Source: a virus. From it: 64,000 nt of DNA. Where the stretch lies: the UHGV virus genome UHGV-0179428. One strand, 5' to 3'. The notes below the pieces were generated by a model. The model ran no database searches. It was not told the DNA's origin and was given only the letters and a program-made list of their open reading frames with translations. This document shows positions 16,745 through 35,299 of this stretch, piece after piece (within the stretch, counting starts at the first letter, position 1; every line of letters begins with the position of its first letter). The translations under genes were made by a program, and so were the position numbers.

Positions 16745-16800
16745 AAAAAAAACGTGCTACTCCTACCCTCTAAGAGGGTAGGAGGTTACTTTATTTTTTT
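16745..16800. terminator. bidirectional rho-independent terminator between convergent genes
   Basis: CCTACCCTC-taa-GAGGGTAGG hairpin flanked by a 10-A run upstream and a T-run downstream. Confidence 0.7.
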
Positions 16801-18121: not shown

Positions 18122-21100
18122 ATGGCTGTCGTCCTAGACCCACACTTCAAAAAACCGGGGAATAAAATAACCGGTGAAGCGGTCGCCGTCATTGGTACGA
18201 AATACCGAATGTTGGTACCTGCCCACGCCCCTTTTTTCACCACATCCCTGGTGGTCAAGAGCGGCGGCAAAACACTGACCTTAGGCGACGATTACATTAT
18301 TACACACCCGTACGAGACCGGTATGTTGCGCACAGCCTATCTCATTCACGGGATGATTTGGATTGTTAATGACAAATACAAATCGAATTTTACGGTAGAT
18401 TACCACGCCGTTGGTTGTGGTCAGGCTACCCAACAACAGATTACCGCAGAACGCGAACTCAATAAAGATAAATACCCGACTACGTGTCAGTGGGACACCG
18501 TCATCGGGGACGTTTACTTTCCGCCGGTCGATATCCAGTTCGATTGGGAGAATTGGAAAGGCGAACTGGAGTTAATGCAGGCTATTGCTGGATTAGGCGA
18601 TTCGTTAGGGGAAGTCGTGAGTCGACTTAACCCCATCGCACGCAATACCCTGGATTTAGAATACCGTGCTAACAGCAAGGTTATCACTTCCGAGCAGTAT
18701 GCCGTATACGACAATAAAGGTGGTTTCACCTACAACACTACCCGTCATCGTTATAGCTTGAGTTATAAAACTGCAACCTTTAACGACTACGTCCTGTCCG
18801 TGAAACACAGAATTCCTGCTATTCTGCCAGACATGACGAAATTGAATCCAAACGAACAGATCGATTGGATGCTCTGTTATGCTAACGGCGGTGCAAGCAT
18901 TCTACGGTTGCAGCTAAAACAGCGCAAAATCTCACTGGTCTTAACGGTCGCTATTGGCAGCGGTTCAACAAACTACGATTATACGTTAATCAACGGTTTA
19001 ACTGACGATGAGTTAAAAAACGATATCGATTTTAGTGTAACCCGTCAACCCGGAAACGGTGTTTACGTCATCGTAGTAAAAACAAATAAACAGACCATGG
19101 ATTACACATTCAACGTCGATACGCCGCCTGATGAGTTCTCGGCAGGGTATTCGAAAACGGATGTTGCTAAATGGTTGAAGTTTAAAACGAACATTAATCT
19201 AAACTGGTATGCGGCCGAAAACGATTATATTCAAATTCGTTCTTTACCCGGCGCACCAGAACCTGACGTCGATAATGATGTTTACCAGTTAATAGTCAAA
19301 TACCATCAGTTAGTTGAGCAGCTGTATCGTAACGCGCCTGCACACGAACACGTTACACGTAAGGACAACCCGCACACCGATACGTGGGGACCGATCCGTG
19401 CGTTAGAGCTGAATGGTATTGCGTCGGATGCCGCGTTAGCTTACGGGAAAACGAAACAGCAGTTAACGGATTACGTTAATGCTAAGTACCCAACACAAGC
19501 AACGTTAACCGCACAGAAAAAACTGCTTCGTGAATCGGCGAGCAAGAACGTTAACGGCACGATTACCACACTTCCGGGTTTTACTTCGTTCACGACGGAA
19601 GTTGATCCGGTTTCGATGTCGAAATACGTGAGTCCTTATTTTAGCGAAAGCTATGTTAGTAGTGGTCACAGATATCACGGCGCGCTTCGTTACACAGGAA
19701 CGAAAAGCGGTTTCAGTGCTAACTTTAATGCGGTGCCTGCCAACCTGCAAGATATTGACTTTATTGTTACTGGACGTAAAACAGCGTCTGGTAATGAAGC
19801 GGTCGGTAGGGTTGGTTTACGTTTCTACCAAAATCCTGGTAGTAACTCCGGTAAGTACGTAGAGATTACCGGTGAAATCTGGTCCGGTACTCTTACTATC
19901 GAACTGGCGTTGCACGGTTACGGTAGTCCGGTACCGGCAGTTCGGTATATTTCACAAGCTCCTAACCCGGCAATACCGGATGGGGATTTTACGCTACGTT
20001 TTCAACTGAAGCGTACAGGGAATGTGTTTGACGTCGTTATTACCGTAAACAGTAAAACGTATAGCGGTCGGATTAACTTCAATAACATGGACGCTGCGTT
20101 AGAAGCATTAGAGAATCAGCACCACTTTAAATCGCTGATTAATAATGTTGCCGACGCCGTTACCATTAGTTCGCAAAACAAAGGTAACACAGTTACCATT
20201 AAGAAAGCACCGGATGTTGTTGACGAGACACGTTTAGGCGCTCAGTTTGTCGTTGATCCGAAATCCATTAAGTTCATCGGTCAAGGTTCTACTGATGTTA
20301 ACGTGGGTAACAACCCCGTAACGTTCCAAGCAGGTACTAACCAGCTTGTGCTATACCCCGATGACCGAGGATTGTTGTGGCGTGGTAAAAAACTCTTAGA
20401 CCCCACCACCGTAGCCCCGTATCTGCCAGGCAATACCGCAGGTGGTACAGGTTTATTCTACGCAAACTCGACAACAACGGTTACGATCACCGGTAGCGGG
20501 ATAAAAGCCTCGCCGTTCGTAGCGACCTTTATTCTTCCTACCGCGACCGATACAACAGCTCTGGCGGCTTGGCAGTTGACCGATGAGTTTGGTACCGCTG
20601 AAAACCTTGCAGCAACGCCAGCACTGATTGAAAAACTCGATGCGGAGTTCACCGGTAAGTTAGTTGCAGTTAAATCGTACATTAACGACATGCAACTTAC
20701 CAGCTCGGTTACTATCGATAAGATTACCTTTGGTTTAGGTAATGTTGCGAATACGCCTGATGTTGATTTACCGATTTCTACAGCACAACGTGCGGAGTTA
20801 GATAAATACTCGCCTAAAGTTCACCAACACCCGTTTACCGCTTTTGGTACAGGGAACGCAACCACAGCGAAACGTGGTCTGATTAAATTTGGTCTGGATG
20901 TGGATGATGCGACTTTAGCACTCGATGGGAGTGTGGTAATGGCGCAGACTTCCCAGATTGAAAAATTGGAGCGCGCTGTCAGCGGTGTTGACTCGGAGGC
21001 ACGTCTTGACATTATACGTTTTGGTGAGTCTGGTAACGACTTAATAGACCTTACGGTCAAAGACAAAATTCTGGTCACGCTTCCAGCTTCAACGTATTTT

Positions 21101-22444
21101 ATCGGTGGTGAAACATACGACGTTCCGTTGATGACGATTAACGTCAGTGAACGTTTTCCGAAATTGAATACAGAAATCTACGCAGGGATTTTTGTTGATA
21201 TTGTTGACAACAAAGCGAAGTATATTGTCCATGACAGCTACAGTCAGGCTGAAACGGATACCATGACGCGTGTAGGGTTGATTGGTGTTAACGACATTTC
21301 TGAGGTGTTCGTTACGGAGATGCGTAATGTCACACGGTTGGGTGATTTCCGTGAACTGAAAGATCATAAAGCCGATGACAACGCACACATTCAGCGCTCC
21401 GCGTCACGTGCAGCGCTTGGGTTAGCTAACTTAACCGTAGGCGCGCCTTGCTGGGCTTCTGGACTCCAGGCAGTAGTACGCGGTGAAGCAGATTGGCGTT
21501 ATGTTGCCGGTGGGCAGTATAAAGCTTTAGACGGGGTGAAATACGACCAACTCGCATCAAAGTGGATTTTTGACGCGAAAGGGGTAAGCGATAACCTACA
21601 CGGGTTTATCCACAACATGTTCCCAGCTTTTAAGAACGCAGGAATGCGGGTAAGTTGGGAAACAGAAAGCAACGCAAAAACCGGCACGGTGTTAGAAACT
21701 GTTTTAGGTTGTTGGAAAAACACCGACGGCGAGTTTATGCGGTTGTCGTTACTTATCACTCGTGGTTATCGTTTAACTGACAGCAATGGTGAATATTGTT
21801 ACGCAGGGTTCGGTTTGAACTTCGGTAGCGGGAAATCGGTAGTGGTAGGTTTCACACCAACGAAGCGTGTTACGCCTGCACCGTGGAATACGTTACAACC
21901 TGACGTAACGTTTACCCACACCCGTGCTGCAAACAACGCAATAACGTTTAACGCAACACTGACCTTAGCGGGCACTACGTATACCATCGTGGTGTTTTTA
22001 TCTGCGACAGATAAATACGTAAGCTGCACGGCAGCAGGGGGAGCTACGCAGAAAATCCCTCTAACTGACCGTTTAACAGGGTTCAATATCGCACCTATCG
22101 TTAACGATCCGTATACCCCTATTTACTACGGTTTAGGGGGACTTTATGAGGATGAGGTTCGTGCCAACATCCGTTCTACGGCAGACAGCGCAACCTCGAA
22201 TAAAGTCTATGGTACGTTGTTAGACTATATTAGCAACTATTCCTCATTAAATCGTGTGCGCGTTATGGAATTGACCGGTGTCAGTTCAGACCCCGAAACG
22301 CTTAATGCGTTAGTGGCAACTGAATTTAATAACAACCTGGCGGATTACGCTGCGTTACCGATACCTCCTTATCTTAACAAGGAGCGCGTAATGTCGTTTA
22401 TCGACACCAACAATAAAGTGCAGGCGGTAATCATTCGCGATTAA
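18122..22444 (+). CDS. giant tail fibre / receptor-binding-like protein 1 (1440 aa)
   Basis: ORF track; AGGAGTAGAGA-ATG; N-terminal region shares the PFF...GDDY module with the next three genes. Confidence 0.7.
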   Translation: MAVVLDPHFKKPGNKITGEAVAVIGTKYRMLVPAHAPFFTTSLVVKSGGKTLTLGDDYIITHPYETGMLRTAYLIHGMIWIVNDKYKSNFTVDYHAVGCGQATQQQITAERELNKDKYPTTCQWDTVIGDVYFPPVDIQFDWENWKGELELMQAIAGLGDSLGEVVSRLNPIARNTLDLEYRANSKVITSEQYAVYDNKGGFTYNTTRHRYSLSYKTATFNDYVLSVKHRIPAILPDMTKLNPNEQIDWMLCYANGGASILRLQLKQRKISLVLTVAIGSGSTNYDYTLINGLTDDELKNDIDFSVTRQPGNGVYVIVVKTNKQTMDYTFNVDTPPDEFSAGYSKTDVAKWLKFKTNINLNWYAAENDYIQIRSLPGAPEPDVDNDVYQLIVKYHQLVEQLYRNAPAHEHVTRKDNPHTDTWGPIRALELNGIASDAALAYGKTKQQLTDYVNAKYPTQATLTAQKKLLRESASKNVNGTITTLPGFTSFTTEVDPVSMSKYVSPYFSESYVSSGHRYHGALRYTGTKSGFSANFNAVPANLQDIDFIVTGRKTASGNEAVGRVGLRFYQNPGSNSGKYVEITGEIWSGTLTIELALHGYGSPVPAVRYISQAPNPAIPDGDFTLRFQLKRTGNVFDVVITVNSKTYSGRINFNNMDAALEALENQHHFKSLINNVADAVTISSQNKGNTVTIKKAPDVVDETRLGAQFVVDPKSIKFIGQGSTDVNVGNNPVTFQAGTNQLVLYPDDRGLLWRGKKLLDPTTVAPYLPGNTAGGTGLFYANSTTTVTITGSGIKASPFVATFILPTATDTTALAAWQLTDEFGTAENLAATPALIEKLDAEFTGKLVAVKSYINDMQLTSSVTIDKITFGLGNVANTPDVDLPISTAQRAELDKYSPKVHQHPFTAFGTGNATTAKRGLIKFGLDVDDATLALDGSVVMAQTSQIEKLERAVSGVDSEARLDIIRFGESGNDLIDLTVKDKILVTLPASTYFIGGETYDVPLMTINVSERFPKLNTEIYAGIFVDIVDNKAKYIVHDSYSQAETDTMTRVGLIGVNDISEVFVTEMRNVTRLGDFRELKDHKADDNAHIQRSASRAALGLANLTVGAPCWASGLQAVVRGEADWRYVAGGQYKALDGVKYDQLASKWIFDAKGVSDNLHGFIHNMFPAFKNAGMRVSWETESNAKTGTVLETVLGCWKNTDGEFMRLSLLITRGYRLTDSNGEYCYAGFGLNFGSGKSVVVGFTPTKRVTPAPWNTLQPDVTFTHTRAANNAITFNATLTLAGTTYTIVVFLSATDKYVSCTAAGGATQKIPLTDRLTGFNIAPIVNDPYTPIYYGLGGLYEDEVRANIRSTADSATSNKVYGTLLDYISNYSSLNRVRVMELTGVSSDPETLNALVATEFNNNLADYAALPIPPYLNKERVMSFIDTNNKVQAVIIRD

Positions 22445-22457
22445 GGAGAATTTTTTG

Positions 22458-25400
22458 ATGAAAGCGTATCCTTACGATCCTCGGGGGACGAAAGCCGAGA
22501 ATCACTTCTTAGAGGAGCGTATCATCGGGTCAGAGAACAACAACGATCGGGTGGTGATTTTAGACCACCGCCCGTTCTTTGAAGATTTGGTCGTCAGACA
22601 ACCAGGTTCAACCACCCCACTGAGTCGTGGGGTGGACTACGAACTGCAATATCAGCTGACGGAACTGGATGACTCGGTAGCAGCCAACGTGTATTGTGGG
22701 GTACACCTTATCAACCCATCCATCAAGGGTATCGTAACCTTTGAAGGACAAATGCTCGGCGGTACGTTCTACGACCCGTTTGTTGATATTCTCGATGAAC
22801 TGGTGAAATATTTGAATAACCCAGTCAGTGCTGACTGGTTGTTATTAGACGGTAGACCATCGTTATATCCAGCGACGCCAGCAGCAACGTCCTGGGCGGA
22901 TTTGCTGAACAAAAAATATTTAGCGTCGGCAGTTCACGACATTGAATTGAAAACCGACGACGCTAACCAATTAATTAAAGACAAATTAGCTGAAGTTAAA
23001 GCGTTAGTGACTGCGTTGGGTAAAGAAATCGAAGCATTTAACTACCCAGCACATATCGCAGCGAAGAACCCGCACGAAACCACATCCGCGCAGATTAACG
23101 CGCATCCTGTTAACTTGAAAACCCCCGACACCTTTATGGCGTACGGGTTAAAGTTGAAAGCACTGACGGATGAGCTGAAAGCGTTTCGTTTACCCCAGTC
23201 AGTTATCGACACGTATATCTCTCACTGGATTTCTTCGGAAGTACGGGGCGTGTTTAACTGTACGGTGTCAGGAAACCGCGCACAGTTCCGTTCGAAAAAC
23301 GGTGAGTCAGAAATCATTTTTGCCAACGATGGCTTTACGTTAAAATCCAACGGTTCTGTGGTATTAGCGGTAGGACATCTGGAAGGCACAGGTGCAGGAC
23401 GTTACATTAATTGGCGTGCTGGTAAAAACACCTTACGTATCGAGTCAACCGGCGATGCTTTAGGGATGAACAAACTCACCCTGAATGGTAACCCGTTACT
23501 GACTACCACAGCTTTGATGGAATACCAACAAGATCCTGATGCTGGCGGGAGCGGCGGCGGTGATCCTGATGACTCGAAGGTGTACATCGAAGGCCGTAAT
23601 GGGATTAGCTTCACCGGTAAAGGCTCTCGGACCGATCCTATCGTGGGTACTATCGACCCGACGAAAGCGACAACCGCTGAAAAAGGTGTTGTTAAGCTTA
23701 AAACTGGTAAAGGTACAGAAACGGTTGGGGTTGCAGCAACGCCAGCGTCATTAACACCTTATTCGACCGACCTATCAGGGTATGTGGCTAAAACGACCAT
23801 GATTAACGGTAAGCCAATGAATGACGGCTCCAGGACAATCACGAAAGCTGACCTGGGGTTAGGGCAAGCGGATAACACCGCAGACCTTGACAAACCGTTG
23901 TCAACCGAGTTAACTAAGGCGGTTAGCGGTCTAGCAGATGTAGGCCATCATCACGATTGGTCGGAGTTAGGCATTTATAAAGCTTCTCAATCTGTTTACG
24001 GTATTGGTCGTTATGCAACTAACCAGAACGGTTTGGTTGAAAACCGTGCAGTGGTACCGAACATCTTAAAAGAGCTTTCGGCACGTTTAAGTGTGGTCGC
24101 TGCGGCAATTGCAAATGCGAAAGAAGGAACAGTCACGGATTTCGCTGCTGTAAAAGGCGCAGACTGGCGATTTAATAGCCAGGGTACGGCAATCTCCGTT
24201 CAGGATTTGAAATATTTCTATTTGCTGGACGGCACGAAAGGTGACAGTACCGTTACCGGTGCGATTGACCTGCAAACCACCCCGATGTTTAACTGGTTCT
24301 CACCGAACAACCAACTTGAGCTGACTTGGGCTACGGGTAAGGTGAGTAACGGTACGGGAATCAACTGGACGGGTATTGAAGAACCGCCATTGATGGGGTT
24401 CCAGTCTGTCCCGGTAGGTAAGACTGCTACACAGATGGGTGACCAGTCAGTTGTTACTGTATTGGCAAAAACGCGTGTAAAAGCATACCAACCGAAGCTC
24501 TGGGTTTATGCTGCTGGGGGTGGTCCGGTTACGGTTTACATTAACGGTATCCAGGCAGCCACAGGCCAGTCTCCACTCGTCGCGGTGTATGAAACGTCGT
24601 CAGACGTTGAAAATTACACAGTGGCGGTTAAAGCCGAGTGTAGCGACACGACTAAATCCGCAGCGGTACAGTTCGAAGTTTACGATGGTGACTACCCCGT
24701 TTATTTCAGTGGCCCTGAAACGCGCGTAGAGCTTCTCCAGGAGTTTGTTACAACGCACGTAGGGGTTCGTCACTATTTGTACGTTAACATGCTCACAGGC
24801 TCTCTGTATTCGCGTGCTGAACCGATTCAGAGTATTGCCGTCGACCCAGAACGCGGTTATATCGGTTATGTTGATATCGTTCCTGGTCAGTCTTACGCGA
24901 ATAAAACTGTGGGATTTGAAACCACGTTTGATTTCGGGAAAAGTGCGGAAGTTAGCGAGCACATCAGCACTCGTAAGGCACACGGTCTCAGCGCTGTTGA
25001 CTGGGCGTTAACGGATAACCCACGGTTGCCGTTATTAAACCGTGCTATTGCTGAACCAAGAGCGTGTATCTTTAGGAAACCGTTAGCAACCGCTACAGGG
25101 GATGTTTTCCATCTTGTCAGTCGTGGCCTTTATACCTACGCACACAACCAAAACGTGAAGTCGAGTCTTCAATACGTTGTGATACCTGAAGGTGCTACGC
25201 CGTATTGTTGGTTTACACCATTTAACCCGAAAGAAAACAACGCACCGACATTCGAAGGCTCGTTTGCGTTCGATGTTGACGATGTTGGTGGAACGCAAGC
25301 CCTTGCTGCTGCGCCGGATTTGGTTCTATGCACGTCAACGCAAGGTAGCAGCGTTAAACGTCGCTATCTGCGCATTGACCTAACTACCAAAACCTGTAAG

Positions 25401-26639
25401 TTGGGGATTGGTTCCCGTTCAGATTCTGCTGTTACGGATATTCCGTTAGTGATGGAGGAGTCTGGGGAAACGGCAGTGGCCGCAACGTTTAAGGATGTGT
25501 TGTTCAACGGTGAGGAAACCAACGCGGCGACGCTCGACTTGATAGGTTGGGGTGCCAGCCGAGATAAAATTCCTGCAAACCATGCACCTCGTGGCATGAT
25601 TCGCTATCGTTACAACGTAAACAGTCGGGTATTACGTTTAGCACTGACGTTCTCACAGTTCGGAACGACAACAGTTAAACATCGACAGCTGGAGATTCAA
25701 TTCCCGTTCGATTTAGTGGATTATTTCACTGGCGACGGTGTGGGATTGTCGTTTAAAGAACTGTCTGCGAAATGTCGTGTAACGATTAGTCACGCGCTGA
25801 TTGATCCGGCTACGAGTAACGTCGACATTGATAAGTACCATTACTTACGTTCGTTGTTCGAATCGTATCTGGATTCGTCCGTTGGGTATTTGGCTGATAC
25901 CAAAGACGTTGATTTTAGTCAGTCTGTGATTGACCCTGCGACTTATGAGGTTAGTCAAAAATACCGCGTTACAGAAAGCATCGCGCTGCCAACCGGCCAG
26001 GGAAGTGTTGCTGTTTCCCATGACGGTCAGTTGCCTGCGCAGTTCTTTGACCGTAAGCTGTCTCGTGGTGCCTTGATGGCCAAGAAAGGTGAACTCAACG
26101 CTTCCTGGAATAATGAGTGGAGCACGACTAAAGCTGCTGCGAGTCGTTATCGCCATAAACTCATTCTACGCTTTGCACAAGGTGCTGATAAACAGCAGTA
26201 TCGCGTTGCAAAAGTGGCCGGGACGGTGAAGTCTAACTGGCCGGGTAAAGTGATTATCGGTGATGCCGGGAAGGACCCGTATGTATCGGCTATTGATAGC
26301 GTATCTTTTGCGCTTTCGACCGCCTCTGATACAGGTAAAGCGATTACTCTTACGCCAAAGGACTTACGTGTAGGTCAAGACATTTATATTGTCTTAGAAC
26401 CGCCCGGCAATAATCCAGAAGGTTATGAACTTAACTTCACTTGTTCGTTAGATGTCACTGACGAGAAAAGTGTCCGTCAAGATCAACTCAATGCACAGAG
26501 TTTCGAACTCCGTAGCGGCGAAAGTCAGTTCTTAATGGAGAAACGCAACCCGTACCACATCACGAGTAAAGCGTGGAAGTGGATTCTGGCTGTACTGAAA
26601 CGAGAACTTAACGGGAAGCAGTTAGGGGATCGTACTTAG
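22458..26639 (+). CDS. giant tail fibre / receptor-binding-like protein 2 (1393 aa)
   Basis: ORF track 22455-26639; ATG at 22458 after AAGGAGAA; N-terminal RPFFEDL...GVDYEL module; terminator hairpin downstream. Confidence 0.7.
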   Translation: MKAYPYDPRGTKAENHFLEERIIGSENNNDRVVILDHRPFFEDLVVRQPGSTTPLSRGVDYELQYQLTELDDSVAANVYCGVHLINPSIKGIVTFEGQMLGGTFYDPFVDILDELVKYLNNPVSADWLLLDGRPSLYPATPAATSWADLLNKKYLASAVHDIELKTDDANQLIKDKLAEVKALVTALGKEIEAFNYPAHIAAKNPHETTSAQINAHPVNLKTPDTFMAYGLKLKALTDELKAFRLPQSVIDTYISHWISSEVRGVFNCTVSGNRAQFRSKNGESEIIFANDGFTLKSNGSVVLAVGHLEGTGAGRYINWRAGKNTLRIESTGDALGMNKLTLNGNPLLTTTALMEYQQDPDAGGSGGGDPDDSKVYIEGRNGISFTGKGSRTDPIVGTIDPTKATTAEKGVVKLKTGKGTETVGVAATPASLTPYSTDLSGYVAKTTMINGKPMNDGSRTITKADLGLGQADNTADLDKPLSTELTKAVSGLADVGHHHDWSELGIYKASQSVYGIGRYATNQNGLVENRAVVPNILKELSARLSVVAAAIANAKEGTVTDFAAVKGADWRFNSQGTAISVQDLKYFYLLDGTKGDSTVTGAIDLQTTPMFNWFSPNNQLELTWATGKVSNGTGINWTGIEEPPLMGFQSVPVGKTATQMGDQSVVTVLAKTRVKAYQPKLWVYAAGGGPVTVYINGIQAATGQSPLVAVYETSSDVENYTVAVKAECSDTTKSAAVQFEVYDGDYPVYFSGPETRVELLQEFVTTHVGVRHYLYVNMLTGSLYSRAEPIQSIAVDPERGYIGYVDIVPGQSYANKTVGFETTFDFGKSAEVSEHISTRKAHGLSAVDWALTDNPRLPLLNRAIAEPRACIFRKPLATATGDVFHLVSRGLYTYAHNQNVKSSLQYVVIPEGATPYCWFTPFNPKENNAPTFEGSFAFDVDDVGGTQALAAAPDLVLCTSTQGSSVKRRYLRIDLTTKTCKLGIGSRSDSAVTDIPLVMEESGETAVAATFKDVLFNGEETNAATLDLIGWGASRDKIPANHAPRGMIRYRYNVNSRVLRLALTFSQFGTTTVKHRQLEIQFPFDLVDYFTGDGVGLSFKELSAKCRVTISHALIDPATSNVDIDKYHYLRSLFESYLDSSVGYLADTKDVDFSQSVIDPATYEVSQKYRVTESIALPTGQGSVAVSHDGQLPAQFFDRKLSRGALMAKKGELNASWNNEWSTTKAAASRYRHKLILRFAQGADKQQYRVAKVAGTVKSNWPGKVIIGDAGKDPYVSAIDSVSFALSTASDTGKAITLTPKDLRVGQDIYIVLEPPGNNPEGYELNFTCSLDVTDEKSVRQDQLNAQSFELRSGESQFLMEKRNPYHITSKAWKWILAVLKRELNGKQLGDRT

Positions 26640-26675
26640 GACAGACTGCCTGCGGGCAGTTGTGTGTCCGTAGGT

Positions 26676-26714
26676 AACCCCTCCCTGTAATGGGGAGGGG
26701 TATCCATTTTATTT
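26676..26714 (+). terminator. rho-independent terminator
   Basis: ACCCCTCCC-tgtaat-GGGGAGGGGT hairpin followed by T-rich tract. Confidence 0.6.
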
Positions 26715-26733
26715 AAAAGTAGGAGTCTTTACG

Positions 26734-29700
26734 ATGCCGAGAGAAGACGCGGCGCAGTTTAACGGTACGCTAAGCACAGTGACGTACCCTAACCGATTTA
26801 ACGTGGTCATTCCGCCTGAAGGACCTTTTTATCGTATCGGATTAAAACTCACAGTAGCCGACGATACCGCGCCTAACGGACGTCGTACTCTGATTGAGGG
26901 GTTGGACTACTATTTAGGCTATTACTTTAAAGAACTCGCAGAAGCTGAACAAGATCAGATTTATGGCGGGTTTATGTTGCTTACTGCAACAGAAATCGAA
27001 TATGAGATTTTAGGGGTAGCACGGCAGTATCGTGTACCGCAATCTGAAATCGGGAAGTTCTTAGTTCGTACTGACCTGAAAGACCCACGTAACGTGGACT
27101 GGTCGGAGTTAATGGCGTACGCGCCGGTTATTCAACCAATCGACCCCCCTGCTAACTTAGAAGAAGCTATTCTGAGGGACGAGGTCGTTAAAGCGTTGAA
27201 CGATATCCGCAAGAAAATCATTCAGCGTTCAACAGAGTTAGATGCGGCCTTCACCGAAGTCACTAACCTGATTTACGAGAACGGTAAAAAGATTTTCGAT
27301 GAAGAACTATACCAACACCACCTTAATCCTAACGCTCACCAGTATACGACCAATGACGTTGGGGCCCTTCCGGTTTTAGGACGTGCTGTTGACGCTACAA
27401 AAGCGTTTGGGTTGACAATTGACCAACTGGCTACGCTGATGGGTTCGGCGGGCATTGAGCAATCAGACGTTGAACAGTTAATGGGCGAAGCCCTCGGTAC
27501 CGTTTACGGTCGTTGGGGTACCACGAACGGTAATGAACTAACGTTTAAAACACCGGGTGGACACATCATCAGCATCCGTGGTGATAAGTGGTTAATTACT
27601 TCACCACAACCGTTAGTGATTAAAGCAGACCAAGACAACAACGAATCCGGTTTGGCGGTTGAGTTTAGTGCGGGGCTGAATACGCTTTGGGTACACTCTG
27701 GGTCAGAACAGGATGTATTAGCACCGGTCTATAACTCTGTGTATTTGGTTACACCAGAAATGGTGAACATGTACCTGACGTCTGTAACGTTACTTGAAGC
27801 GAACGCCTATTTCAAATCGTCTGACACCGTAAAACCGTACGGTACAGCGAAGCAGTCTAACCCACTAACGTTGAATGCGAATATTCCCACAGCAACCGAG
27901 TCGGTTTATGGGGTGTTTTCGATTACGAATATCGCAACCTCTGTAGCGCTAGGCACTGCTATTTCCCAAAAGGCTGTGACCGAGTTAAAAAACCGGTTGG
28001 ACTTGTACGTTGATGATAGCTACACGGTTAACGGTAAAGGGTTTGTTAAGACAGGCGACAACATGGTGTTAACCTTAACGAAGGCCGATTTCGGTATCGA
28101 TAAGATGAATAACACCACACCCATCGCTAAACCGGTAACAAAAGCATTAGCGAACGTGCTGAAAAATAAAAGTTTGAAGGTACACACGCACACTACCGCT
28201 GATTTGGATAATGTCCCGATTGGTAGCGCAACAGTGGACGGTATCTTACAGCTGTGGGATGCGATTGATACCACGAATGATAAAGCCGTTACATCACGCC
28301 AAGGGTGGTTGTTCGCAAAAGAGATTAAGAAGGTCTCTGATAAACTGAATACCCTCTTGCCCGCATGGACAACGGCCGGGAGCAAATATACCAACAATTC
28401 GATATTGCCGATCTTGTCGATGGGTAATTACGAAGGTTATGGTAAAAACATGGATGCGCTCCAGATGGTTATAGGGGTACAACAAGGTAAGCTTTACGCT
28501 TTAATTAGTTCTAAATCTGCCCTTCCGGGAACTGAGGGTATTTATTACGCTGTTGCTGGGTTAAAAAACGACAAAAGTCTCGGTGAAATTTACAAAACAA
28601 CTTTCCGTTATAAGCCGAAAGGGTTAGAGACGAATTATCCGGGGGTGGAACTAAAAGAAATTACCGTTACTGGTACCGAAGCATTTATAGCGAAGGGCAG
28701 CGACGATAATTATTATTTAGTTAAACTGAACGGTTCAATGGATTACACCAAACATACCGATGTCAGGTTGGTAACTTTCTCAGAATTTGTTTCAGAAACA
28801 ACATGGGAATTTGTGCCGAATATGTTCATGGATCGTGTGGTCATAGCCGATAACGGCGTCTATGTTTTGCGTACGATGCTAATGGCCGATCTGAAAAACA
28901 ATAGTCTGGTGGACTACATTAAGGATACTCCGCAACCTATGTTCCGTGTTGGGTTATTGCGGCTTAATAAAACCGATCGGTTTGAACAGGTTGATTTAAG
29001 CTCTACACGAAAAATCGGTAAGTGTGCCGATTTGGTTGAACCTGGCGCGTTCGATGTAGATAATCCGAATACGAAGCGTCTTGCCTACTTCACTGCGGAA
29101 GGCAAAGCGTTGTGGACAGTGAATTTACAATTAACTAGAGGGGTGTCAAGATGGATAACGCCCGTTGTTAAGGACGGTCACTTGTTAACCGTCGGCGTGT
29201 CTGGCGTTTGTCTTGGTTTTTCTTCAACGAAAGGTACCACATTCGGGCCATGGAATGGTGCTTATCGTCTCGACCTATTAACCGGGGAGGTTGGGTTAGA
29301 GACAACTAACATCTTCCCAATCAAAATCGATACTACAGGTTGCTACTTAAAAGACGGAACAAAAATAGAGCTGAAATGGAAATGGGCTACTCGAAGTTCT
29401 GGCTATATGACCGACAATAGAATCTGTGTCGGTGATATGGTTTATTCTTGCTGCTGTTCGACAGAAAAACAACTTGCACCATCTCTCCATTACCAGAAAC
29501 TCCCAGAAGGAGTTAGTTATCTGGACTATGTTAAGTTGAGTGCGGGGTATGAGGGGCAATCTACGTTTGAAAATCGGATAAACCCTGTGGTGGGTTCGGT
29601 GTGGAAACCGTCTATGACCTTCCCATTGTTCTTCCCAGGAACAAACAAAGTATGGCTTAAACATCAAAAAACGGCTTATTTCATTGAAGCCGAATATGAT

Positions 29701-31920
29701 AAAGATACGACTTATGGTTATCCTGGATACGGCGGGTTTGGACCAACATCCCGCCGTGTTGAAAAAAAAGCGAACGAATACGGCGTATTGACAAATATAC
29801 CGCTGGTTGTTACGCCAGACATACCGAAAGGTCTACTAGATGGGGCTTACTTTATCGGTGCTGAAAGTAAACCATGTAAAGTTGTTTACGGTACCACTAC
29901 GGTGGCTAGTGATCGGTTGTCTATCGATGCGGCAGAATGGGCGAAGTTGACTAATATTGTTCAGTCCAGCCAGTTCTCTGGGGCTTCTAACGGCAACGCC
30001 TATGAGCGGATTAGCGTAGCTAAGACCAAAAAGAACAACTACAGTTTGTCCTTTTGGGTGCTTGGTCAAACGATGTCTGGTGGTCCGCTTTGTATCGCGA
30101 TAGTGAGTCTTATCTATAAAGACACTGACGGGGTAAATAAGTTTGCTTTTTACTTCTTTCAGGTAAAACCGACTATAACCAACGGGGTCATAAGGTTCGT
30201 TAGTTCGGAAGCGAGAATGATGACGTTCAGGGAAAAAGTGGCCAGTAACGCCATTAATCTCTCACCCACAGCTTTTAATGGTGAACTTAAACAACGCTCC
30301 GGTCAAGTTTTCCTTTATTCGCAAGACGGACAAAAGTTCAGATTCTCAATACATAACCTGGTTGGCGGGAATCTTGTAGGATCAGAGATTTCTTTTGCTT
30401 TTGGGATAAACTTGACTAAAAAAGGAGAATGGTTTACCGGCGAAATTCATCGGGCGTGGGGCTATACGTATACGCTGAATAATACATCTGAAGTCTATAT
30501 ACCCGATCTCTCGGGCATCGCGCTATTGACTTGTAACTCGGAAGATTTAAACGAGTTGTATCTCGGTGGCGAACAGTATAGAATCTCTGATTTGTTTAAC
30601 AAAAAATATACTGTTATCGATAAGATTATTATTGGCGGCGTACAAACACAGAGCGGTTGGAATTTCTATCTGACGGAGGAAACCGAGTTAAGTTTTGGAA
30701 ATAAAAGATATACCGTTCCAAGATGGTCCGTTGATTTAAGCGATGAATTCCCGACTAATCACGCTAACCAGACATTCTACGTTTATGCTGAAGTGGTCGG
30801 TTCTACTGCCCAATACCGCATCGGTTTAGAGCAGTTAGCTGATACCTCGTCGAGACTGTTTGTTGGGACAGTAACCACTGATTCGAACCGTATTACGGAT
30901 ATCAGTATCGATAAAGTAAAACGGTTAGGTCGTGTAAAAGAGCTGGAAAATCATGCCTCGGTTGTTGATCAGCACGATGTGGCGCAGGCGTTCGACAGGA
31001 AAACTGGTCCACTATTAACAGTGGTTAATAAACCCGTTAAAGCCATTACAGCATCTGCGAGCAAGGGTGCTGGGTATGTCGATGGTCAGAAATGGAATAC
31101 GTTGTCCGGGATTGCAACGCGGCCCAGGTTGCCGGTACAGGAAACCTATTCAGGTTATAAAAGTATCAGCAGGGTGGCGTATGAGAACTGCGCTGACCAG
31201 TTCTGGCAGAAAGCGGTTGCTGCGAACGTTGCAGCGGCTACTGCTTCTGAGAACAAACAAGCAGCAACCGCGAACATGAAGTGGTTGGGTGCGTATACGA
31301 AACCGACTACCGGCGAGTATGCATATCTGGCATTGAGTCTGCGTGTTAAAGTACCTGGCGATCCTGGTACTACTAATCGTCGACTGAAAATCAGGCTTGC
31401 GGCCCCGACAGGTATAACTCAAGTTCGTTACGGGCTAAATCAGTCTGGCGGTACGATGACTGAACAGACAGTAACATTAACTGCTAACAGCTATCTGGAA
31501 AAAGAACACGCCGGATTTAAGCCAGCCGAAGAAGTCCGTGTACATGCTACGTTTGTCATTCCAAAAAATGAATACGATAGCTACCGTACGAAGTTCGGTG
31601 CTGTTCAGCTGATTGACGTTGAGTCGAACACTGTCATTAAACAGACAGATATCGACACACCGTTTATCGTGTATACCGACACGGAGTTAGCAGCACAATC
31701 TGGTTTGGTGTATAAAGCGGTTAAGGGTCAGTTCCATCAACTCCCGTCTCAACCTGTCGTCATTGTAACTGATGGACAGACAGGGACTACGCCACCGGTG
31801 AAAACCTCGTTTGCTGACGGGACATTAACGGTCTACGTGGCAACCACGTACGACGCGGTGAATCCAGCACAAACGCGCGATATCGATAAGCTCCAGTTCA
31901 ATCTTATGTTTACATCTTAA
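26734..31920 (+). CDS. giant tail fibre / receptor-binding-like protein 3 (1728 aa)
   Basis: ORF track; AGGAGTCTTTACG-ATG; N-terminal GPFYRIGL...GLDYYL module. Confidence 0.7.
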   Translation: MPREDAAQFNGTLSTVTYPNRFNVVIPPEGPFYRIGLKLTVADDTAPNGRRTLIEGLDYYLGYYFKELAEAEQDQIYGGFMLLTATEIEYEILGVARQYRVPQSEIGKFLVRTDLKDPRNVDWSELMAYAPVIQPIDPPANLEEAILRDEVVKALNDIRKKIIQRSTELDAAFTEVTNLIYENGKKIFDEELYQHHLNPNAHQYTTNDVGALPVLGRAVDATKAFGLTIDQLATLMGSAGIEQSDVEQLMGEALGTVYGRWGTTNGNELTFKTPGGHIISIRGDKWLITSPQPLVIKADQDNNESGLAVEFSAGLNTLWVHSGSEQDVLAPVYNSVYLVTPEMVNMYLTSVTLLEANAYFKSSDTVKPYGTAKQSNPLTLNANIPTATESVYGVFSITNIATSVALGTAISQKAVTELKNRLDLYVDDSYTVNGKGFVKTGDNMVLTLTKADFGIDKMNNTTPIAKPVTKALANVLKNKSLKVHTHTTADLDNVPIGSATVDGILQLWDAIDTTNDKAVTSRQGWLFAKEIKKVSDKLNTLLPAWTTAGSKYTNNSILPILSMGNYEGYGKNMDALQMVIGVQQGKLYALISSKSALPGTEGIYYAVAGLKNDKSLGEIYKTTFRYKPKGLETNYPGVELKEITVTGTEAFIAKGSDDNYYLVKLNGSMDYTKHTDVRLVTFSEFVSETTWEFVPNMFMDRVVIADNGVYVLRTMLMADLKNNSLVDYIKDTPQPMFRVGLLRLNKTDRFEQVDLSSTRKIGKCADLVEPGAFDVDNPNTKRLAYFTAEGKALWTVNLQLTRGVSRWITPVVKDGHLLTVGVSGVCLGFSSTKGTTFGPWNGAYRLDLLTGEVGLETTNIFPIKIDTTGCYLKDGTKIELKWKWATRSSGYMTDNRICVGDMVYSCCCSTEKQLAPSLHYQKLPEGVSYLDYVKLSAGYEGQSTFENRINPVVGSVWKPSMTFPLFFPGTNKVWLKHQKTAYFIEAEYDKDTTYGYPGYGGFGPTSRRVEKKANEYGVLTNIPLVVTPDIPKGLLDGAYFIGAESKPCKVVYGTTTVASDRLSIDAAEWAKLTNIVQSSQFSGASNGNAYERISVAKTKKNNYSLSFWVLGQTMSGGPLCIAIVSLIYKDTDGVNKFAFYFFQVKPTITNGVIRFVSSEARMMTFREKVASNAINLSPTAFNGELKQRSGQVFLYSQDGQKFRFSIHNLVGGNLVGSEISFAFGINLTKKGEWFTGEIHRAWGYTYTLNNTSEVYIPDLSGIALLTCNSEDLNELYLGGEQYRISDLFNKKYTVIDKIIIGGVQTQSGWNFYLTEETELSFGNKRYTVPRWSVDLSDEFPTNHANQTFYVYAEVVGSTAQYRIGLEQLADTSSRLFVGTVTTDSNRITDISIDKVKRLGRVKELENHASVVDQHDVAQAFDRKTGPLLTVVNKPVKAITASASKGAGYVDGQKWNTLSGIATRPRLPVQETYSGYKSISRVAYENCADQFWQKAVAANVAAATASENKQAATANMKWLGAYTKPTTGEYAYLALSLRVKVPGDPGTTNRRLKIRLAAPTGITQVRYGLNQSGGTMTEQTVTLTANSYLEKEHAGFKPAEEVRVHATFVIPKNEYDSYRTKFGAVQLIDVESNTVIKQTDIDTPFIVYTDTELAAQSGLVYKAVKGQFHQLPSQPVVIVTDGQTGTTPPVKTSFADGTLTVYVATTYDAVNPAQTRDIDKLQFNLMFTS

Positions 31921-31960
31921 CGCCACGAGACAAGGACGTCTCGGATTAAGGAGAGTGGCC

Positions 31961-33160
31961 ATGGCCTCCATTGTATACCAATACCCTTTAGATTTAACGG
32001 GAAGCCTAACCTCTAACGCCGTGGAGCGTCAGGTTACGTTAGGTACAGGTAAAGTTAACCGTGCGTTTGCTTTTCCTGATGGACCGTTTTATGCCGATAC
32101 GTTCCGCTTGCGGGTTGCCAACCGACCCGATGCGACGTATGAGCGCGGAACGGACTATGAGTTGATTTTTGCACATCCGGCTTACGAGAAATTGACGAAG
32201 AACCGGGAAGTGGTAATGGCGGTTGTTGTAACGAACACCGCCATTCCGACCGATATCACGGTATCGGCGCAAGTAGTCGGGGGTCCGCAGTCTGCAAACG
32301 TGACTGCGATAGAACAGGCGATTGCTGAGTTGAATCTCGATAATCGAACTGTCGGCTTTAAAGACTTGCGAAATGTTCCTGATACATTTCCGTCAGCACC
32401 AACGTATAAAGACGTCGGTGATATTTACGGTTTCGAATATATCATTACAGTGCTCGCTGGCATTAAAGATGCGATAACGGCGGGCGATGCTGTACAGCTT
32501 GAGAACATCAAAGCGATTCTCGAAAGCCTGAAAAACGATTTCCTGGACGCGCTGAACGCACACATTAACGCCACGGGTAACGTCCACCATCTGGATATTC
32601 ACCAGGTTAACGGGTTAACAGAAACGGAGATCCGTGCACTTATCCGTGATGTACAGTCTGCCATCGATGCAACCATTACCGATATTAATGCGTTGAAGAA
32701 AGCAGATGAAGCGTTAGGAAAACGTATTGATGCTGTTGTCAAATCTTTGGAAGCGTGGAACGACCAACTTAACATCGTTGCACAAAACTACCAGAAAATG
32801 GCATTGGCATTGGCGAACCTAAATTCGTTAGTGTTACAGTTACAGAAAAATATCAACGATCTGAACACCAAACTCAACCAAGCGATTCAGCGCATTGCTG
32901 CGTTAGAACAGCGGGGTAATGAGTCCGATCAGAAAATTGATAATCTGCAACAAAACCTGGATGCGCTTAAACAACAGGTTGCGAATAACACGAACGCAAT
33001 CAGTCAGGCGAATCAGAACCTACAAAACCATATTGCGGCAGATAACCCACACACGGGCTATCTCCACAAGAAATACGGTGGTGTGGTTCAGGCTCCAGTG
33101 CACGTTAACGCTAACTTGACGTCCCGTGATGACGTTCAGGCAGAAGCGGGTACGAAATAA
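31961..33160 (+). CDS. fibre-like protein 4 with coiled coil (399 aa)
   Basis: ORF track 31955-33160; ATG at 31961 after AAGGAGAG; N-terminal GPFYADTF...GTDYEL module; heptad-like Q/N/L-rich region. Confidence 0.7.
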   Translation: MASIVYQYPLDLTGSLTSNAVERQVTLGTGKVNRAFAFPDGPFYADTFRLRVANRPDATYERGTDYELIFAHPAYEKLTKNREVVMAVVVTNTAIPTDITVSAQVVGGPQSANVTAIEQAIAELNLDNRTVGFKDLRNVPDTFPSAPTYKDVGDIYGFEYIITVLAGIKDAITAGDAVQLENIKAILESLKNDFLDALNAHINATGNVHHLDIHQVNGLTETEIRALIRDVQSAIDATITDINALKKADEALGKRIDAVVKSLEAWNDQLNIVAQNYQKMALALANLNSLVLQLQKNINDLNTKLNQAIQRIAALEQRGNESDQKIDNLQQNLDALKQQVANNTNAISQANQNLQNHIAADNPHTGYLHKKYGGVVQAPVHVNANLTSRDDVQAEAGTK

Positions 33161-33227
33161 CTTTATTACAGGAGGAACTATGCTTATGGGCGTAGTCCTC
33201 CATTCTTTTTTATTTTAAGGATACGTG

Positions 33228-33623
33228 ATGGCGATCAGTGTTAAAAATGTACGTGACCGAATCACCAACGTAGAGAACCAAATGGCAACTGGCCCACGTG
33301 TTGATCCGCAAGTTGCGTCGAAAGCACATAATGCCGCCGACACTTTTTCGGGTTGGACGCCAAGTCGGTTAGACTGCGGGGGGAGTTGCAGCTGGACGTG
33401 CTCAAACGGTTGTACGCATGGCTGTACGAGTTGTTCGGGCACCTGTACGTCAGTGTGTGTAGGTAGCTGCTCCTCTGCGTGCGGTAACCAGTGTACTGGA
33501 TGTAGTTCAACGTGTTCCGGTGGCTGCTCAGGTTGCAGTGGGACCTGTGGGGGTGCTTGCTCGGGCCGTTGTTCTACGGGTTGTTCTGGTGCTTGCTCTG
33601 GTGGCTGTTCTGGCCCAACCTAA
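33228..33623 (+). CDS. Cys-rich (C-x3-C)n protein 1, candidate rSAM substrate / precursor
   Basis: ORF track 33225-33623; ATG at 33228 after AAGGA; about 60-aa N-terminal region then about 70 aa of C-x3-C repeats with S/G/T spacers starting at LDCGGSCSWTCS. Confidence 0.75.
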   Translation: MAISVKNVRDRITNVENQMATGPRVDPQVASKAHNAADTFSGWTPSRLDCGGSCSWTCSNGCTHGCTSCSGTCTSVCVGSCSSACGNQCTGCSSTCSGGCSGCSGTCGGACSGRCSTGCSGACSGGCSGPT

Positions 33624-34032: not shown

Positions 34033-34034
34033 TT

Positions 34035-34241: not shown

Positions 34242-34390
34242 CTAAGCCCTCCAGTGGTAGTATGTCTATTACGCAATAACCGAGTTAATTGTACGGGTTT
34301 ACTACTGAGTTTCAAGTCACCGGTAGGCAATGGCGCGGTGGTTTCTATACCCTGAATGTCCGTTTGACCGTGAAATAATTGGAGCAATCA

Positions 34391-35278: not shown

Positions 35279-35299
35279 AAACGACCGGAGTCACCTGCA

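What the first reader, a model, noticed from the sequence alone, without database searches (positions are those of the whole stretch)
18122..33160. Four consecutive giant proteins share a common N-terminal module, suggesting a multi-fibre or branched receptor-binding apparatus
The first roughly 80 residues of each protein carry a recurring pattern (RPFF or GPFY, then G-x-DY-x-L about 25 residues later) followed by unrelated, very long C-terminal bodies (1440, 1393, 1728, 399 aa). A shared attachment domain with divergent distal parts is typical of phages carrying several different fibres or spikes on one baseplate, which usually broadens host range.
Basis: partly seen in the sequence, partly recalled or inferred. 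Interest (0 to 1): 0.55.

Follow-up and report, generated by a model that had tools for sequence, protein, structure and literature searches.

The report
Jumbo-phage baseplate fibre gene set
These four genes are a new, divergent copy of an already described set of tail-fibre proteins of giant phiKZ/SPN3US-type phages; they share an N-terminal module that in phiKZ docks the fibres to the baseplate, so the finding is real but ordinary.

Summary
The four ORFs exist as described (1440, 1393, 1728 and 399 aa). Their N-terminal similarity is far beyond chance: a profile built only from phiKZ gp131/133/134/135 picks exactly these four ORFs out of 173 in the window (E 5e-28 to 2e-7).

The window comes from a new SPN3US/Erskinevirus-like jumbo phage. 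The block is syntenic with SPN3US gp170-167 and phiKZ gp131-135, and sits next to a diverging gp130 homologue. In the phiKZ cryo-EM atlas, gp130 is the protein under which the fibres dock.

- The shared module is about 135-220 aa, not about 80 aa. It comprises a beta-sandwich, a helix and a His motif.
- The three giants are not unrelated downstream. They share a collinear scaffold of about 550 aa plus a second module of about 85-155 aa, each marked by invariant histidine pairs.

The variable parts look like specificity determinants. P3 carries a beta-propeller-containing cassette that has been swapped between near-identical relatives.

The N-domains fall into two ancient types. This lineage has three of type A and one of type B; phiKZ has the reverse. 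That favours one composite fibre over four independent ones, but this is inference.

Verdict: a new member of a known kind, of modest interest.

The parts
16791..18053 (-). P0: homologue of phiKZ gp130 / SPN3US gp171 (420 aa), transcribed divergently from the fibre operon. Probable docking protein for the fibres.
   Evidence: BLASTP to phiKZ gp130: 21% identity over 416 aa, E 5e-12. 81% identity to Asesino gp191. phrog_3337. In phiKZ the fibre attachment sites lie beneath gp130 (PMC13250141). SPN3US gp171 is an essential, tail-associated protein (PMC5105663).
18122..22444 (+). P1 (1440 aa): type-A giant fibre subunit, orthologue of SPN3US gp170 / Asesino gp190.
   Evidence: phrog_7557 E=0. 46-48% identity to Asesino gp190. 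N-terminus matches phiKZ gp131, E 5e-9.
18122..18601 (+). P1 shared N-terminal module (residues 1-160).
   Evidence: hhalign: P1 1-160 = P2 2-165, and P4 10-147 = P1 3-135, E 2e-15. phiKZ-only profile E 4e-15.
18602..19273 (+). P1 insert A (about residues 161-384), between the N-module and the first His node. Absent from P2, P3 and the Vibrio-phage P1 orthologue.
   Evidence: hhalign block map. Node positions in five phages. 20-29% identity to Asesino in this stretch.
19598..20233 (+). P1 insert B (about residues 493-704). Lineage-specific: absent from the Asesino, SPN3US, pEa_SNUABM_38 and Vibrio-phage orthologues.
   Evidence: About 200-residue gap opposite Asesino gp190. The node 1 to node 2 spacing is 483 aa here against 275-282 aa in the other four P1 orthologues.
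21029..21496 (+). P1 second shared module (residues 970-1125), with the invariant pair H1082/H1089.
   Evidence: hhalign: P1 970-1125 = P3 1294-1454, E 2e-13; P1 992-1100 = P2 750-853. Invariant His residues.
22458..26639 (+). P2 (1393 aa from ATG 22458): type-A giant fibre subunit, orthologue of SPN3US gp169 / Asesino gp189.
   Evidence: phrog_8078 E=0. 52% identity to Asesino gp189. AGGAGA ribosome-binding site 8 nt upstream of ATG 22458.
22458..24140 (+). P2 shared scaffold (residues 2-562): N-module, helix, His node 1 (H200/H207), proximal shaft, His node 2 (H498/H500).
   Evidence: hhalign: P2 2-562 = P3 1-548, E 9e-41. Invariant His residues. Weak tail-fibre PHROG hits at residues 405-507.
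26734..31920 (+). P3 (1728 aa): type-A giant fibre subunit, orthologue of SPN3US gp168 / Asesino gp188.
   Evidence: phrog_7449 E=0. 43% identity to Asesino gp188. 57 homologues found.
28402..30612 (+). P3 central cassette (about residues 557-1293): all-beta body containing a beta-propeller. Hypervariable and exchanged between near-identical relatives; candidate receptor-binding part.
30613..31095 (+). P3 second shared module (residues 1294-1454), with the invariant pair H1407/H1414.
   Evidence: hhalign E 2e-13 to P1 970-1125. Invariant His residues. The AF2 monomer model is disordered here (model 874-938 = P3 1402-1466).
31961..33160 (+). P4 (399 aa from ATG 31961): type-B short subunit, orthologue of SPN3US gp167. 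Consists of N-module, helix, His node (H203/H211), a roughly 140-residue single helix and a second His node (H359/H366).
   Evidence: phrog_2163 E 8e-103. 77% identity to SPN3US gp167. Best phiKZ match is gp135, E 2e-13. AF2: residues 10-125 form a beta-sandwich with pLDDT>90, with helices at 161-204 and 223-361.
15358..16323 (+). Context: baseplate assembly protein homologue (SPN3US gp173 / Asesino gp193).
   Evidence: phrog_3216 'baseplate assembly protein', E 7e-114. Same position as in Asesino and SPN3US.

Best explanation
**Core (about 0.9 likely).** The four ORFs are the baseplate-fibre paralogue set of an SPN3US-like, phiKZ-related jumbo myophage. They correspond to SPN3US gp170/169/168/167 and phiKZ gp131/133/134/135.

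**The shared module.** The first 135-220 residues comprise a small beta-sandwich, an alpha-helix and a His...NPH motif. This is the docking and oligomerisation module. It anchors the proteins under the gp130-like protein P0, which is encoded on the opposite strand immediately upstream.

**The three giants.** They continue with a common proximal shaft of constant length, about 280 residues between two invariant histidine nodes. I infer that these nodes are metal-binding oligomerisation clasps of the kind seen in T4 fibres. A third common node follows. Between and after the nodes each chain carries private globular domains. These include a beta-propeller cassette in P3 that has been exchanged among close relatives, and they are the likely host-recognition parts.

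**Favoured sub-model (about 0.5, inferred).** The four proteins are subunits of one composite fibre rather than four separate fibres. By analogy with the six N-domains and six-helix bundle seen per fibre in phiKZ, each docking site would hold three copies of P4 (type-B N-domain) and one copy each of P1, P2 and P3 (type-A N-domains), that is, a heterotrimeric giant arm.

**Shown:** the homology, the synteny, the module map, the cassette mosaicism and the two N-domain types.
**Taken from relatives:** virion and tail location, and the docking site.
**Inferred:** the stoichiometry, the metal nodes and receptor binding.
For: **Homology and synteny**
- The N-termini match phiKZ gp131/133-135 and PHROG 2163.
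- The arrangement of a gp130-like gene on the minus strand followed by four fibre genes on the plus strand is conserved in phiKZ, 201phi2-1, SPN3US, Asesino, pEa_SNUABM_38 and a Vibrio phage.
- P0 is homologous to gp130, E 5e-12.

**Location, from relatives**
- gp168 and gp171 are tail-associated proteins and gp171 is essential (PMC5105663).
- The phiKZ atlas reports 12 fibres, each with six gp131-like N-domains and a six-helix bundle under gp130. Its candidate composition is gp131x3 + gp133 + gp134 + gp135 (PMC13250141).

**Composite-fibre sub-model**
- The N-domains split into type A and type B with 92% bootstrap support. Every phage examined has at least one of each.
- phiKZ and 201phi2-1 are A1+B3, whereas the SPN3US-like phages and this window are A3+B1.
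- The distance between node 1 and node 2 is 275-291 aa in all three giants of all five phages. In the Vibrio phage the nodes are in exact register.
- phiKZ gp131-135 all lack transposon insertions (PMC12676376).
- SPN3US gp167 is the most abundant of the four (SC/M 1.90 against 1.00-1.41).

**Fibre and receptor-binding character**
- Weak tail-fibre PHROG hits fall in the shaft.
- Distant type-B relatives end in the endosialidase-chaperone domain PF13884.
- The P3 cassette is mosaic.
- The P3 body contains a sugar-binding or sugar-cleaving type of propeller fold.
Against: - No structure or stoichiometry exists for any SPN3US-like baseplate.
- The phiKZ hetero-hexamer is itself a 'candidate' model, fitted at 4.4-4.6 A with AlphaFold N-domains.
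- The number of N-domain genes is not constant. Moabite and Goslar have 2 and RAY has 3, so a 3+1+1+1 arrangement cannot be universal.
- The spacing between nodes 2 and 3 differs greatly among the giants (187, 345 and 930 aa). This is awkward for a fibre that stays heterotrimeric along its whole length.
- Spectral counts are only semi-quantitative. A gp167-to-giant ratio of about 1.6 fits neither 3:1 nor 1:1 cleanly.
- The N-domain fold has no significant match in the PDB copy searched, so the structural equivalence to the phiKZ density rests on sequence alone.
Confidence: 0.5

Rival explanations
1. Four independent fibres. Each paralogue forms its own homotrimer. The homotrimers use the common N-module to plug into equivalent sockets on the baseplate periphery, for example two homotrimers per docking site at the two non-equivalent positions. 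The phage would then display up to four different receptor-binding fibres.
For: - Distant type-B family members carry the PF13884 C-terminus. That these are homotrimeric fibres is my own knowledge of that domain, not a result here.
- Phages with only two N-domain genes (Moabite, Goslar) are most simply read as two homotrimers per site.
- The invariant His pairs would suit threefold-symmetric metal sites.
- The very different lengths between nodes 2 and 3 cause no difficulty for homotrimers.
- The four SPN3US proteins are within about two-fold of each other in abundance.
- The window encodes a further, unrelated fibre with a gp38 adhesin, so multi-fibre display is plausible in this phage.
Against: - Three type-A paralogues here, or three type-B paralogues in phiKZ, do not map onto two kinds of docking site.
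- Expansion to exactly three happened independently in two lineages.
- All phiKZ paralogues appear essential on a single host, which is unexpected for alternative host-range fibres.
- The set of four is invariant across SPN3US-like phages of Salmonella, Erwinia, Vibrio and the present lineage. It does not vary in number as in CBA120- or phiKp24-type branched systems.
Confidence: 0.35
2. Peripheral baseplate scaffold rather than fibres. The proteins would be structural parts of the very large outer baseplate of these phages and would have no direct receptor-binding role. Host recognition would be carried by other proteins, such as the T-even-like fibre with gp38 adhesin at 53.8-59.6 kb and the DUF7941 proteins.
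For: - The SPN3US literature calls them only 'baseplate/tail fiber candidates'.
- No Pfam domain is found in P1-P3.
- P4 has no distal globular domain.
- A conventional fibre-plus-adhesin module and DUF7941 genes exist elsewhere in the window.
Against: - The phiKZ atlas places gp131-type proteins in the fibres and fits the gp131 propeller at the fibre's distal end.
- The giants diverge much faster than P0 and P4 (43-52% against 76-81% identity to Asesino).
- P3 shows clean cassette replacement between near-identical phages. This is the signature of a specificity determinant, not of a scaffold.
Confidence: 0.1

Closest known systems
phiKZ gp131-gp135 paralogous baseplate/fibre family (also 201phi2-1 gp216-220). 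Sources: Sycheva et al. 2012; phiKZ structural atlas PMC13250141.
   Same: - The N-terminal module is homologous (E 5e-28 to 2e-7 with a phiKZ-only profile).
- The gene neighbourhood is the same, next to a diverging gp130 homologue.
- Both sets have four N-domain paralogues, drawn from the same two N-domain types.
- One member of each set has a beta-propeller body: the gp131 C-terminus in phiKZ and the P3 cassette here.
   Different: - The composition is reversed: three long type-A plus one short type-B here, against one type-A plus three type-B in phiKZ.
- The giants are two to three times longer, at 1393-1728 aa against 771 aa.
- Beyond the first 165-200 residues there is no detectable similarity to gp131.
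- P1-P3 have a shared proximal shaft of about 280 aa and a third node that gp131 lacks.
SPN3US 'Paralog family C' (gp168, gp169, gp170) plus gp167 and gp171 (PMC5694885, PMC5105663).
   Same: - They are direct orthologues in the same order and with similar lengths. P4 is 77% identical to gp167.
- The block is syntenic.
[quoted passage not shown]
   Different: - The sequences are strongly diverged. The nearest annotated phage, Asesino, is only 43-52% identical in the giants.
- P1 has an extra insert of about 210 aa.
- The SPN3US authors did not include gp167 in the paralogue family. Here it clearly shares the N-module.
Branched multi-tailspike systems with shared N-terminal adaptor domains (CBA120 TSP1-4, G7C gp63.1/gp66, phiKp24, phi92). 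This comparison rests on my own knowledge.
   Same: Several large receptor-binding proteins are encoded in tandem. Each has a conserved N-terminal attachment part and a divergent, exchangeable distal part.
   Different: - No similarity to those adaptor domains was detected; there were no Pfam hits at all.
- The number of paralogues is fixed rather than variable.
- In phiKZ the N-domains assemble six per site with a six-helix bundle, rather than branching off one another.
T4-type fibres with histidine metal sites (gp12, gp37) and the widespread 'W..I..KP..FPP..H.H' fibre motif.
   Same: - Invariant His pairs recur along the chains.
- The linker after the N-domain matches the repeated motif of a solved tail collar fibre, 9d93 gp4, E 6e-7.
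   Different: - There is no overall homology.
- The Pfam fibre repeat families are not matched in P1-P4.
- Metal binding here is untested.

Membership tests
phiKZ gp131-like baseplate-fibre paralogue family | N-terminal domain homologous to gp131/gp133/gp134/gp135 | tested here: met
   The phiKZ-only profile hits P4, P2, P1 and P3 at E 5e-28, 9e-21, 4e-15 and 2e-7, and no other window ORF. BLASTP and hhalign at 99-99.6% probability agree.
phiKZ gp131-like baseplate-fibre paralogue family | Tandem paralogues encoded next to a divergently transcribed gp130 homologue | tested here: met
   ORF 16791-18053 (-) matches gp130 at E 5e-12. The same layout is found in phiKZ, 201phi2-1, SPN3US, Asesino, pEa_SNUABM_38, a Vibrio phage, Goslar, RAY and Moabite.
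phiKZ gp131-like baseplate-fibre paralogue family | Located in the virion at the baseplate periphery or in the fibres | not testable with these tools
   Known only for relatives: SPN3US mass spectrometry and a tailless mutant, and phiKZ immunogold labelling and cryo-EM.
phiKZ gp131-like baseplate-fibre paralogue family | Six N-domains plus a six-helix bundle per fibre docking site | not testable with these tools
   Only monomer prediction was available. The P4 model shows the beta-sandwich (pLDDT>90) followed by a helix at 161-204. No multimer modelling was possible.
phiKZ gp131-like baseplate-fibre paralogue family | Distal seven-bladed beta-propeller (gp131 C-terminal domain) | tested here: inconclusive
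SPN3US Paralog family C (gp168-170) | Orthology in sequence, length and gene order | tested here: met
   PHROG families 7557, 8078 and 7449 each match at E=0. The blocks are syntenic. The P1, P2 and P3 clades have bootstrap support of 96, 79 and 100%.
Branched tailspike adaptor systems (CBA120/G7C type) | Gp10-like/XD-type N-terminal adaptor domains and beta-helix tailspike bodies | tested here: not met
   No Pfam family is matched in P1-P3. The P3 body is a propeller-containing all-beta structure, not a beta-helix.
T4-type long tail fibre | Phage_fiber_2 repeats, Gp34/Gp37-type trimerisation domains and a gp38 adhesin partner | tested here: not met
   None of these are present in P1-P4. They are present in a different gene set of the window at 53782-59586 (-).

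The most novel reading that the evidence does not exclude
The gp131-like N-domain exists in two ancient types that always co-occur. One type, a different one in each lineage, has independently expanded to exactly three paralogues: type B in phiKZ-like phages and type A in SPN3US-like phages.

If this reflects the six-fold N-domain socket seen in phiKZ, the three giants of this window form an obligate heterotrimeric fibre of about 500 kDa. P1, P2 and P3 would be held in register by three histidine nodes, paired with a P4 homotrimer. Each chain would contribute a different, exchangeable receptor-binding body. The result would be a single asymmetric fibre presenting three specificities at once, which differs from the homotrimeric fibres that are usual in tailed phages.
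Probability: 0.4. Interest if true: 0.55.

Novelty: new member of a known kind. Interest (0 to 1): 0.3.

Why it matters
The family is already known, so its existence here is not news. It was annotated as paralogues in the 201phi2-1 record, described for phiKZ in 2012 and for SPN3US in 2016-17, and partly visualised in phiKZ in 2026.

This window adds three things:
- A clean module map for the SPN3US-type giants: the anchor, three His nodes and the private inserts.
- Evidence that the P3 propeller cassette is the exchangeable unit. This is useful for host-range engineering of jumbo phages.
- The reciprocal three-plus-one paralogue pattern. This gives a concrete, testable prediction about fibre stoichiometry in a group whose peripheral baseplate is still unresolved in Goslar and unsolved in SPN3US-like phages.

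Tried and rejected
- **Pfam scan of the four proteins.** It returned nothing except coiled-coil noise in P4.
- **PDB sequence searches.** P4, P2 and the P1, P2 and P3 family profiles found no relatives. The N-domain profile hit only a short linear fibre motif in 9d93. The phiKZ N-domain models are evidently not in this PDB copy.
- **Foldseek of the P4 model against the PDB.** There was no significant match (best E 0.047), so the N-domain fold could not be tied to a solved structure.
- **The search for homologous proteins with the P3 cassette alone.** It found nothing. This was a word-index limitation: the exhaustive HMMER search then found 17 hits, nearly all long proteins matching at the same position as in P3 orthologues.
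- **The idea that the P3 cassette is a foreign domain imported from elsewhere.** Rejected, because it is private to this protein family.
- **A search for further N-domain genes in the window.** None were found.
- **A possible repeated beta-sandwich shared by P1 insert A, P1 insert B and the P2 C-terminus.** Only E about 0.01-0.02, so it is not claimed.
- **Similarity of the giants' bodies to the gp131 C-terminus.** None was found.
- **The N-terminal 250 aa of the separate 1500-aa fibre.** It has no tblastn match among phages.
- **Literature search for a structure of an SPN3US-like baseplate.** None was found.
Full report
**1. What is there**

The region holds four tightly spaced + strand ORFs. 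They are P1 at 18122-22444, P2 at 22455-26639, P3 at 26734-31920 and P4 at 31955-33160. For P2 and P4 the likely true starts are the ATGs at 22458 and 31961, each 8 nt downstream of an AGGAGA site. Immediately upstream, on the opposite strand, lies a 420-aa ORF (16791-18053), here called P0.

**2. Is the N-terminal similarity real?**

Yes. Simple BLASTP among the four is marginal for some pairs: P1-P2 N-termini give E 0.24 and P2-P4 give E 4e-5. Every profile test is decisive.
- The independently built PHROG family 2163 matches the N-terminus of all four (E 6e-18, 3e-30, 4.5e-40, 8e-103).
- A profile built only from the first 230 residues of phiKZ gp131, gp133, gp134 and gp135 retrieves exactly these four ORFs from the 173 ORFs of at least 60 aa in the window. 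The E-values are 5e-28, 9e-21, 4e-15 and 2e-7, and nothing else scores below E 10.
- Comparisons between orthologue-family profiles align P4 with P1 (residues 10-147 against 3-135, E 2e-15), with P2 (2-219 against 1-215, E 9e-25) and with P3 (32-223 against 19-214, E 2e-14).

It consists of a beta-sandwich (P4 residues 10-125, pLDDT above 90), a linker carrying the common fibre motif W..L..P..FPP, a helix, and an H-x(6-7)-(N)PH motif.

**3. The bodies are not unrelated**

The three giants are collinear well beyond the N-module.
- P2 2-562 aligns with P3 1-548 (E 9e-41).
- P1 1-1100 aligns with P2 2-853 (E 7e-40). P1 carries two inserts relative to P2, A at about 161-384 and B at about 493-704.
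- A second common module lies downstream: P1 970-1125 aligns with P3 1294-1454 (E 2e-13). The P2 761-848 to P3 1335-1419 match is weaker (E 2e-4, 47% probability).

Each giant has three pairs of histidines that are invariant in the five orthologues aligned:
- P1: H410/H418, H901/H903 and H1082/H1089.
- P2: H200/H207, H498/H500 and H836/H843.
- P3: H195/H202, H484/H486 and H1407/H1414.

P4 has one invariant pair, H203/H211, and one nearly invariant pair, H359/H366.

The distance from the first node to the second is 275-291 residues in all three giants of all five phages examined. The one exception is window P1, because of insert B. In the Vibrio phage the nodes sit at the same residue numbers in all three proteins.

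The truly private parts are:
- P1 inserts A and B, and P1 1126-1440;
- P2 about 580-750, and P2 854-1394;
- P3 557-1293, and P3 1455-1728.

**4. Identity**

The best DNA match of the region is only about 76% identical, to Erwinia phage Asesino. It is confined mostly to the first 467 nt of P1, the anchor.

The block is syntenic with Asesino gp191/190/189/188/187, SPN3US gp171/170/169/168/167, pEa_SNUABM_38 and a Vibrio phage. More distantly, it is syntenic with phiKZ gp130/131/133/134/135 and 201phi2-1 gp215-220. P0 is homologous to phiKZ gp130 (21% identity over 416 aa, E 5e-12).

The literature on relatives adds the following.
- gp167 and gp171 are also virion proteins.
- gp171 is an essential, tail-associated protein and gp168 is a tail protein (PMC5105663).
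- The 2026 phiKZ structural atlas reports 12 fibres per baseplate. Each docks beneath gp130 through six gp131-like N-domains and a six-helix bundle. The candidate composition is gp131x3 + gp133 + gp134 + gp135 (PMC13250141).
- phiKZ transposon sequencing finds no insertions in gp131-135 (PMC12676376).

The finding is therefore a new, divergent instance of a described family.

**5. Evolutionary pattern**

I counted the N-domain genes next to the gp130 homologue:

| Phage(s) | N-domain genes |
|---|---|
| Moabite | 2 |
| Goslar | 2 |
| RAY | 3 |
| phiKZ and 201phi2-1 | 4 (one long, three short) |
| SPN3US-like phages and this window | 4 (three giant, one short) |

A neighbour-joining tree of 35 N-domains splits them into two types with 92% bootstrap support.
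- Type A holds gp131, Goslar gp29, Moabite gp145, RAY gp17 and the P1, P2 and P3 clades.
- Type B holds gp133-135, Goslar gp25, Moabite gp146, RAY gp18/19 and the P4 clade.

The P1, P2, P3 and P4 orthologue clades have 96, 79, 100 and 94% support. Every phage has at least one member of each type. One type has expanded to exactly three members, a different type in each of the two lineages.

**6. The variable parts**

Against Asesino, P0 and P4 are 81% and 76% identical, while the giants are 43-52% identical. Identity falls from 74-85% in the N-module to 16-40% distally.

In a close relative from a public read-set assembly (L004, with the same 1440/1393/1727/399 block), P2 and P4 are 93% identical but P3 is only 64%. 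Across P3 homologues the mosaic is sharp.
- P0110 is 99-100% identical in residues 1-400 and 95-100% in 1500-1728, but only 21-43% in 600-1300.
- P0109 shares the cassette (95-99%) but differs at the C-terminus (75-86%).

An exhaustive HMMER search of 1.84 billion representative proteins with the cassette found only 17 hits. Nearly all are long proteins matching at the same position as in P3 orthologues. The cassette is therefore private to this protein family and highly divergent, not imported from elsewhere.

**7. Mechanism**

*Shown:* homology to the gp131 family, synteny with gp130, the module map, the cassette mosaicism and the two N-domain types.

*Taken from relatives:* location in the tail and docking under gp130.

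*Inferred:*
- (a) The N-module is the docking and oligomerisation unit here as well.
- (b) The His pairs are metal-binding oligomerisation nodes, as in T4 gp12 and gp37. This comparison is from my own knowledge and is untested.
- (c) The private bodies bind receptors.
- (d) The four proteins co-assemble, with three P4 and one each of P1-P3 per site.

Point (d) rests on four things: the phiKZ hexameric socket, the reciprocal three-plus-one pattern, the equal proximal shaft lengths, and the essentiality of all the phiKZ paralogues. It is weakened by three things: the phages with two or three paralogues, the unequal spacing between nodes 2 and 3, and the only semi-quantitative SPN3US abundances (gp167 at 1.90 against 1.00-1.41). 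I put (d) at about 0.5, independent homotrimeric fibres at about 0.35, and a purely structural role at about 0.1.

**8. Verdict**

It is real and non-random, but the module is larger than stated and the bodies are partly related.
These are anchored baseplate fibres, but they are probably not four optional fibres added to broaden host range.
- Novelty: a new member of a known kind.
- Interest is modest. The most useful products are the module map, the exchangeable P3 cassette, and a testable stoichiometry prediction for SPN3US-like phages, whose baseplate is unsolved.

Noticed in passing
window 53782-59586 (- strand): A second, unrelated fibre system of T-even type lies in a GC-rich patch (48-50% against about 41% in the flanks). 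ORF 55084-59586 (1500 aa) matches Phage_fiber_2, Gp34_trimer and Peptidase_S74, plus many tail-fibre PHROGs. ORF 54302-55084 (260 aa) is a T2-type Gp38 adhesin (PF05268, E 5e-70). It is 75-81% identical in protein and 77-81% in DNA to gp38 of E. coli Krischvirus phages (RB49, JSE, Phi1). ORF 53782-54285 has only the Gp38_N domain. This looks like horizontal acquisition by a jumbo phage and suggests an E. coli-like host. The first 250 aa of the fibre have no tblastn match among 50,697 phage records.
   Followed up: partly
window 33225-37529 (+ strand), directly downstream of P4: Two paralogous 132-aa ORFs (33225-33623 and 33634-34032; 44% identical; phrog_6085) have C-terminal halves made almost entirely of Cys/Ser/Gly/Thr repeats (CSGxCSG...). 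They are followed by a phrog_8030 ORF and two radical-SAM ORFs (35300-36223 and 36207-37529). Asesino gp185 is homologous (42-70% identical), and radical-SAM genes lie nearby in Asesino and SPN3US. The cluster resembles a peptide-modification (RiPP-like) cluster. I found no literature on it.
   Followed up: partly
window 38791-40528 (-) and 59725-60324 (-): Four small DUF7941 ORFs (176, 176, 180 and 199 aa). This family was recently proposed to form head-to-tail filaments, a 'fibre cloud', on the peripheral baseplate of phage Goslar (bioRxiv 10.64898/2026.04.21.720040). One of them sits directly upstream of the T-even-like fibre gene.
   Followed up: no
window 19598-20233 (P1 residues about 493-704): A lineage-specific insert of about 210 aa in P1. 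It is absent from the Asesino, SPN3US, pEa_SNUABM_38 and Vibrio-phage orthologues. There is a weak, non-significant resemblance (E about 0.01-0.02) to P1 insert A and to P2 residues 1238-1324.
   Followed up: partly
L007 (Vibrio phage pVp-JHP1101) 16561-16956; L002 (phiKZ) 8811-9143: Some relatives carry a small extra gene inside the fibre block. The Vibrio phage has a 131-aa 'tail fiber assembly protein' just before the short paralogue. phiKZ gp132 and 201phi2-1 gp217 (about 110 aa) match only the His-motif part of the N-module profile (E about 2e-4). The window has no equivalent gene between P1 and P4.
   Followed up: no
window 4558-7278 (-): An SbcC-like protein (phrog_77, E 9e-92) lies a few genes from the baseplate-assembly and fibre genes. 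Asesino, Goslar, RAY and Moabite also have an SMC/SbcC/RecN-type gene near their fibre block, so the wider neighbourhood is conserved.
   Followed up: no
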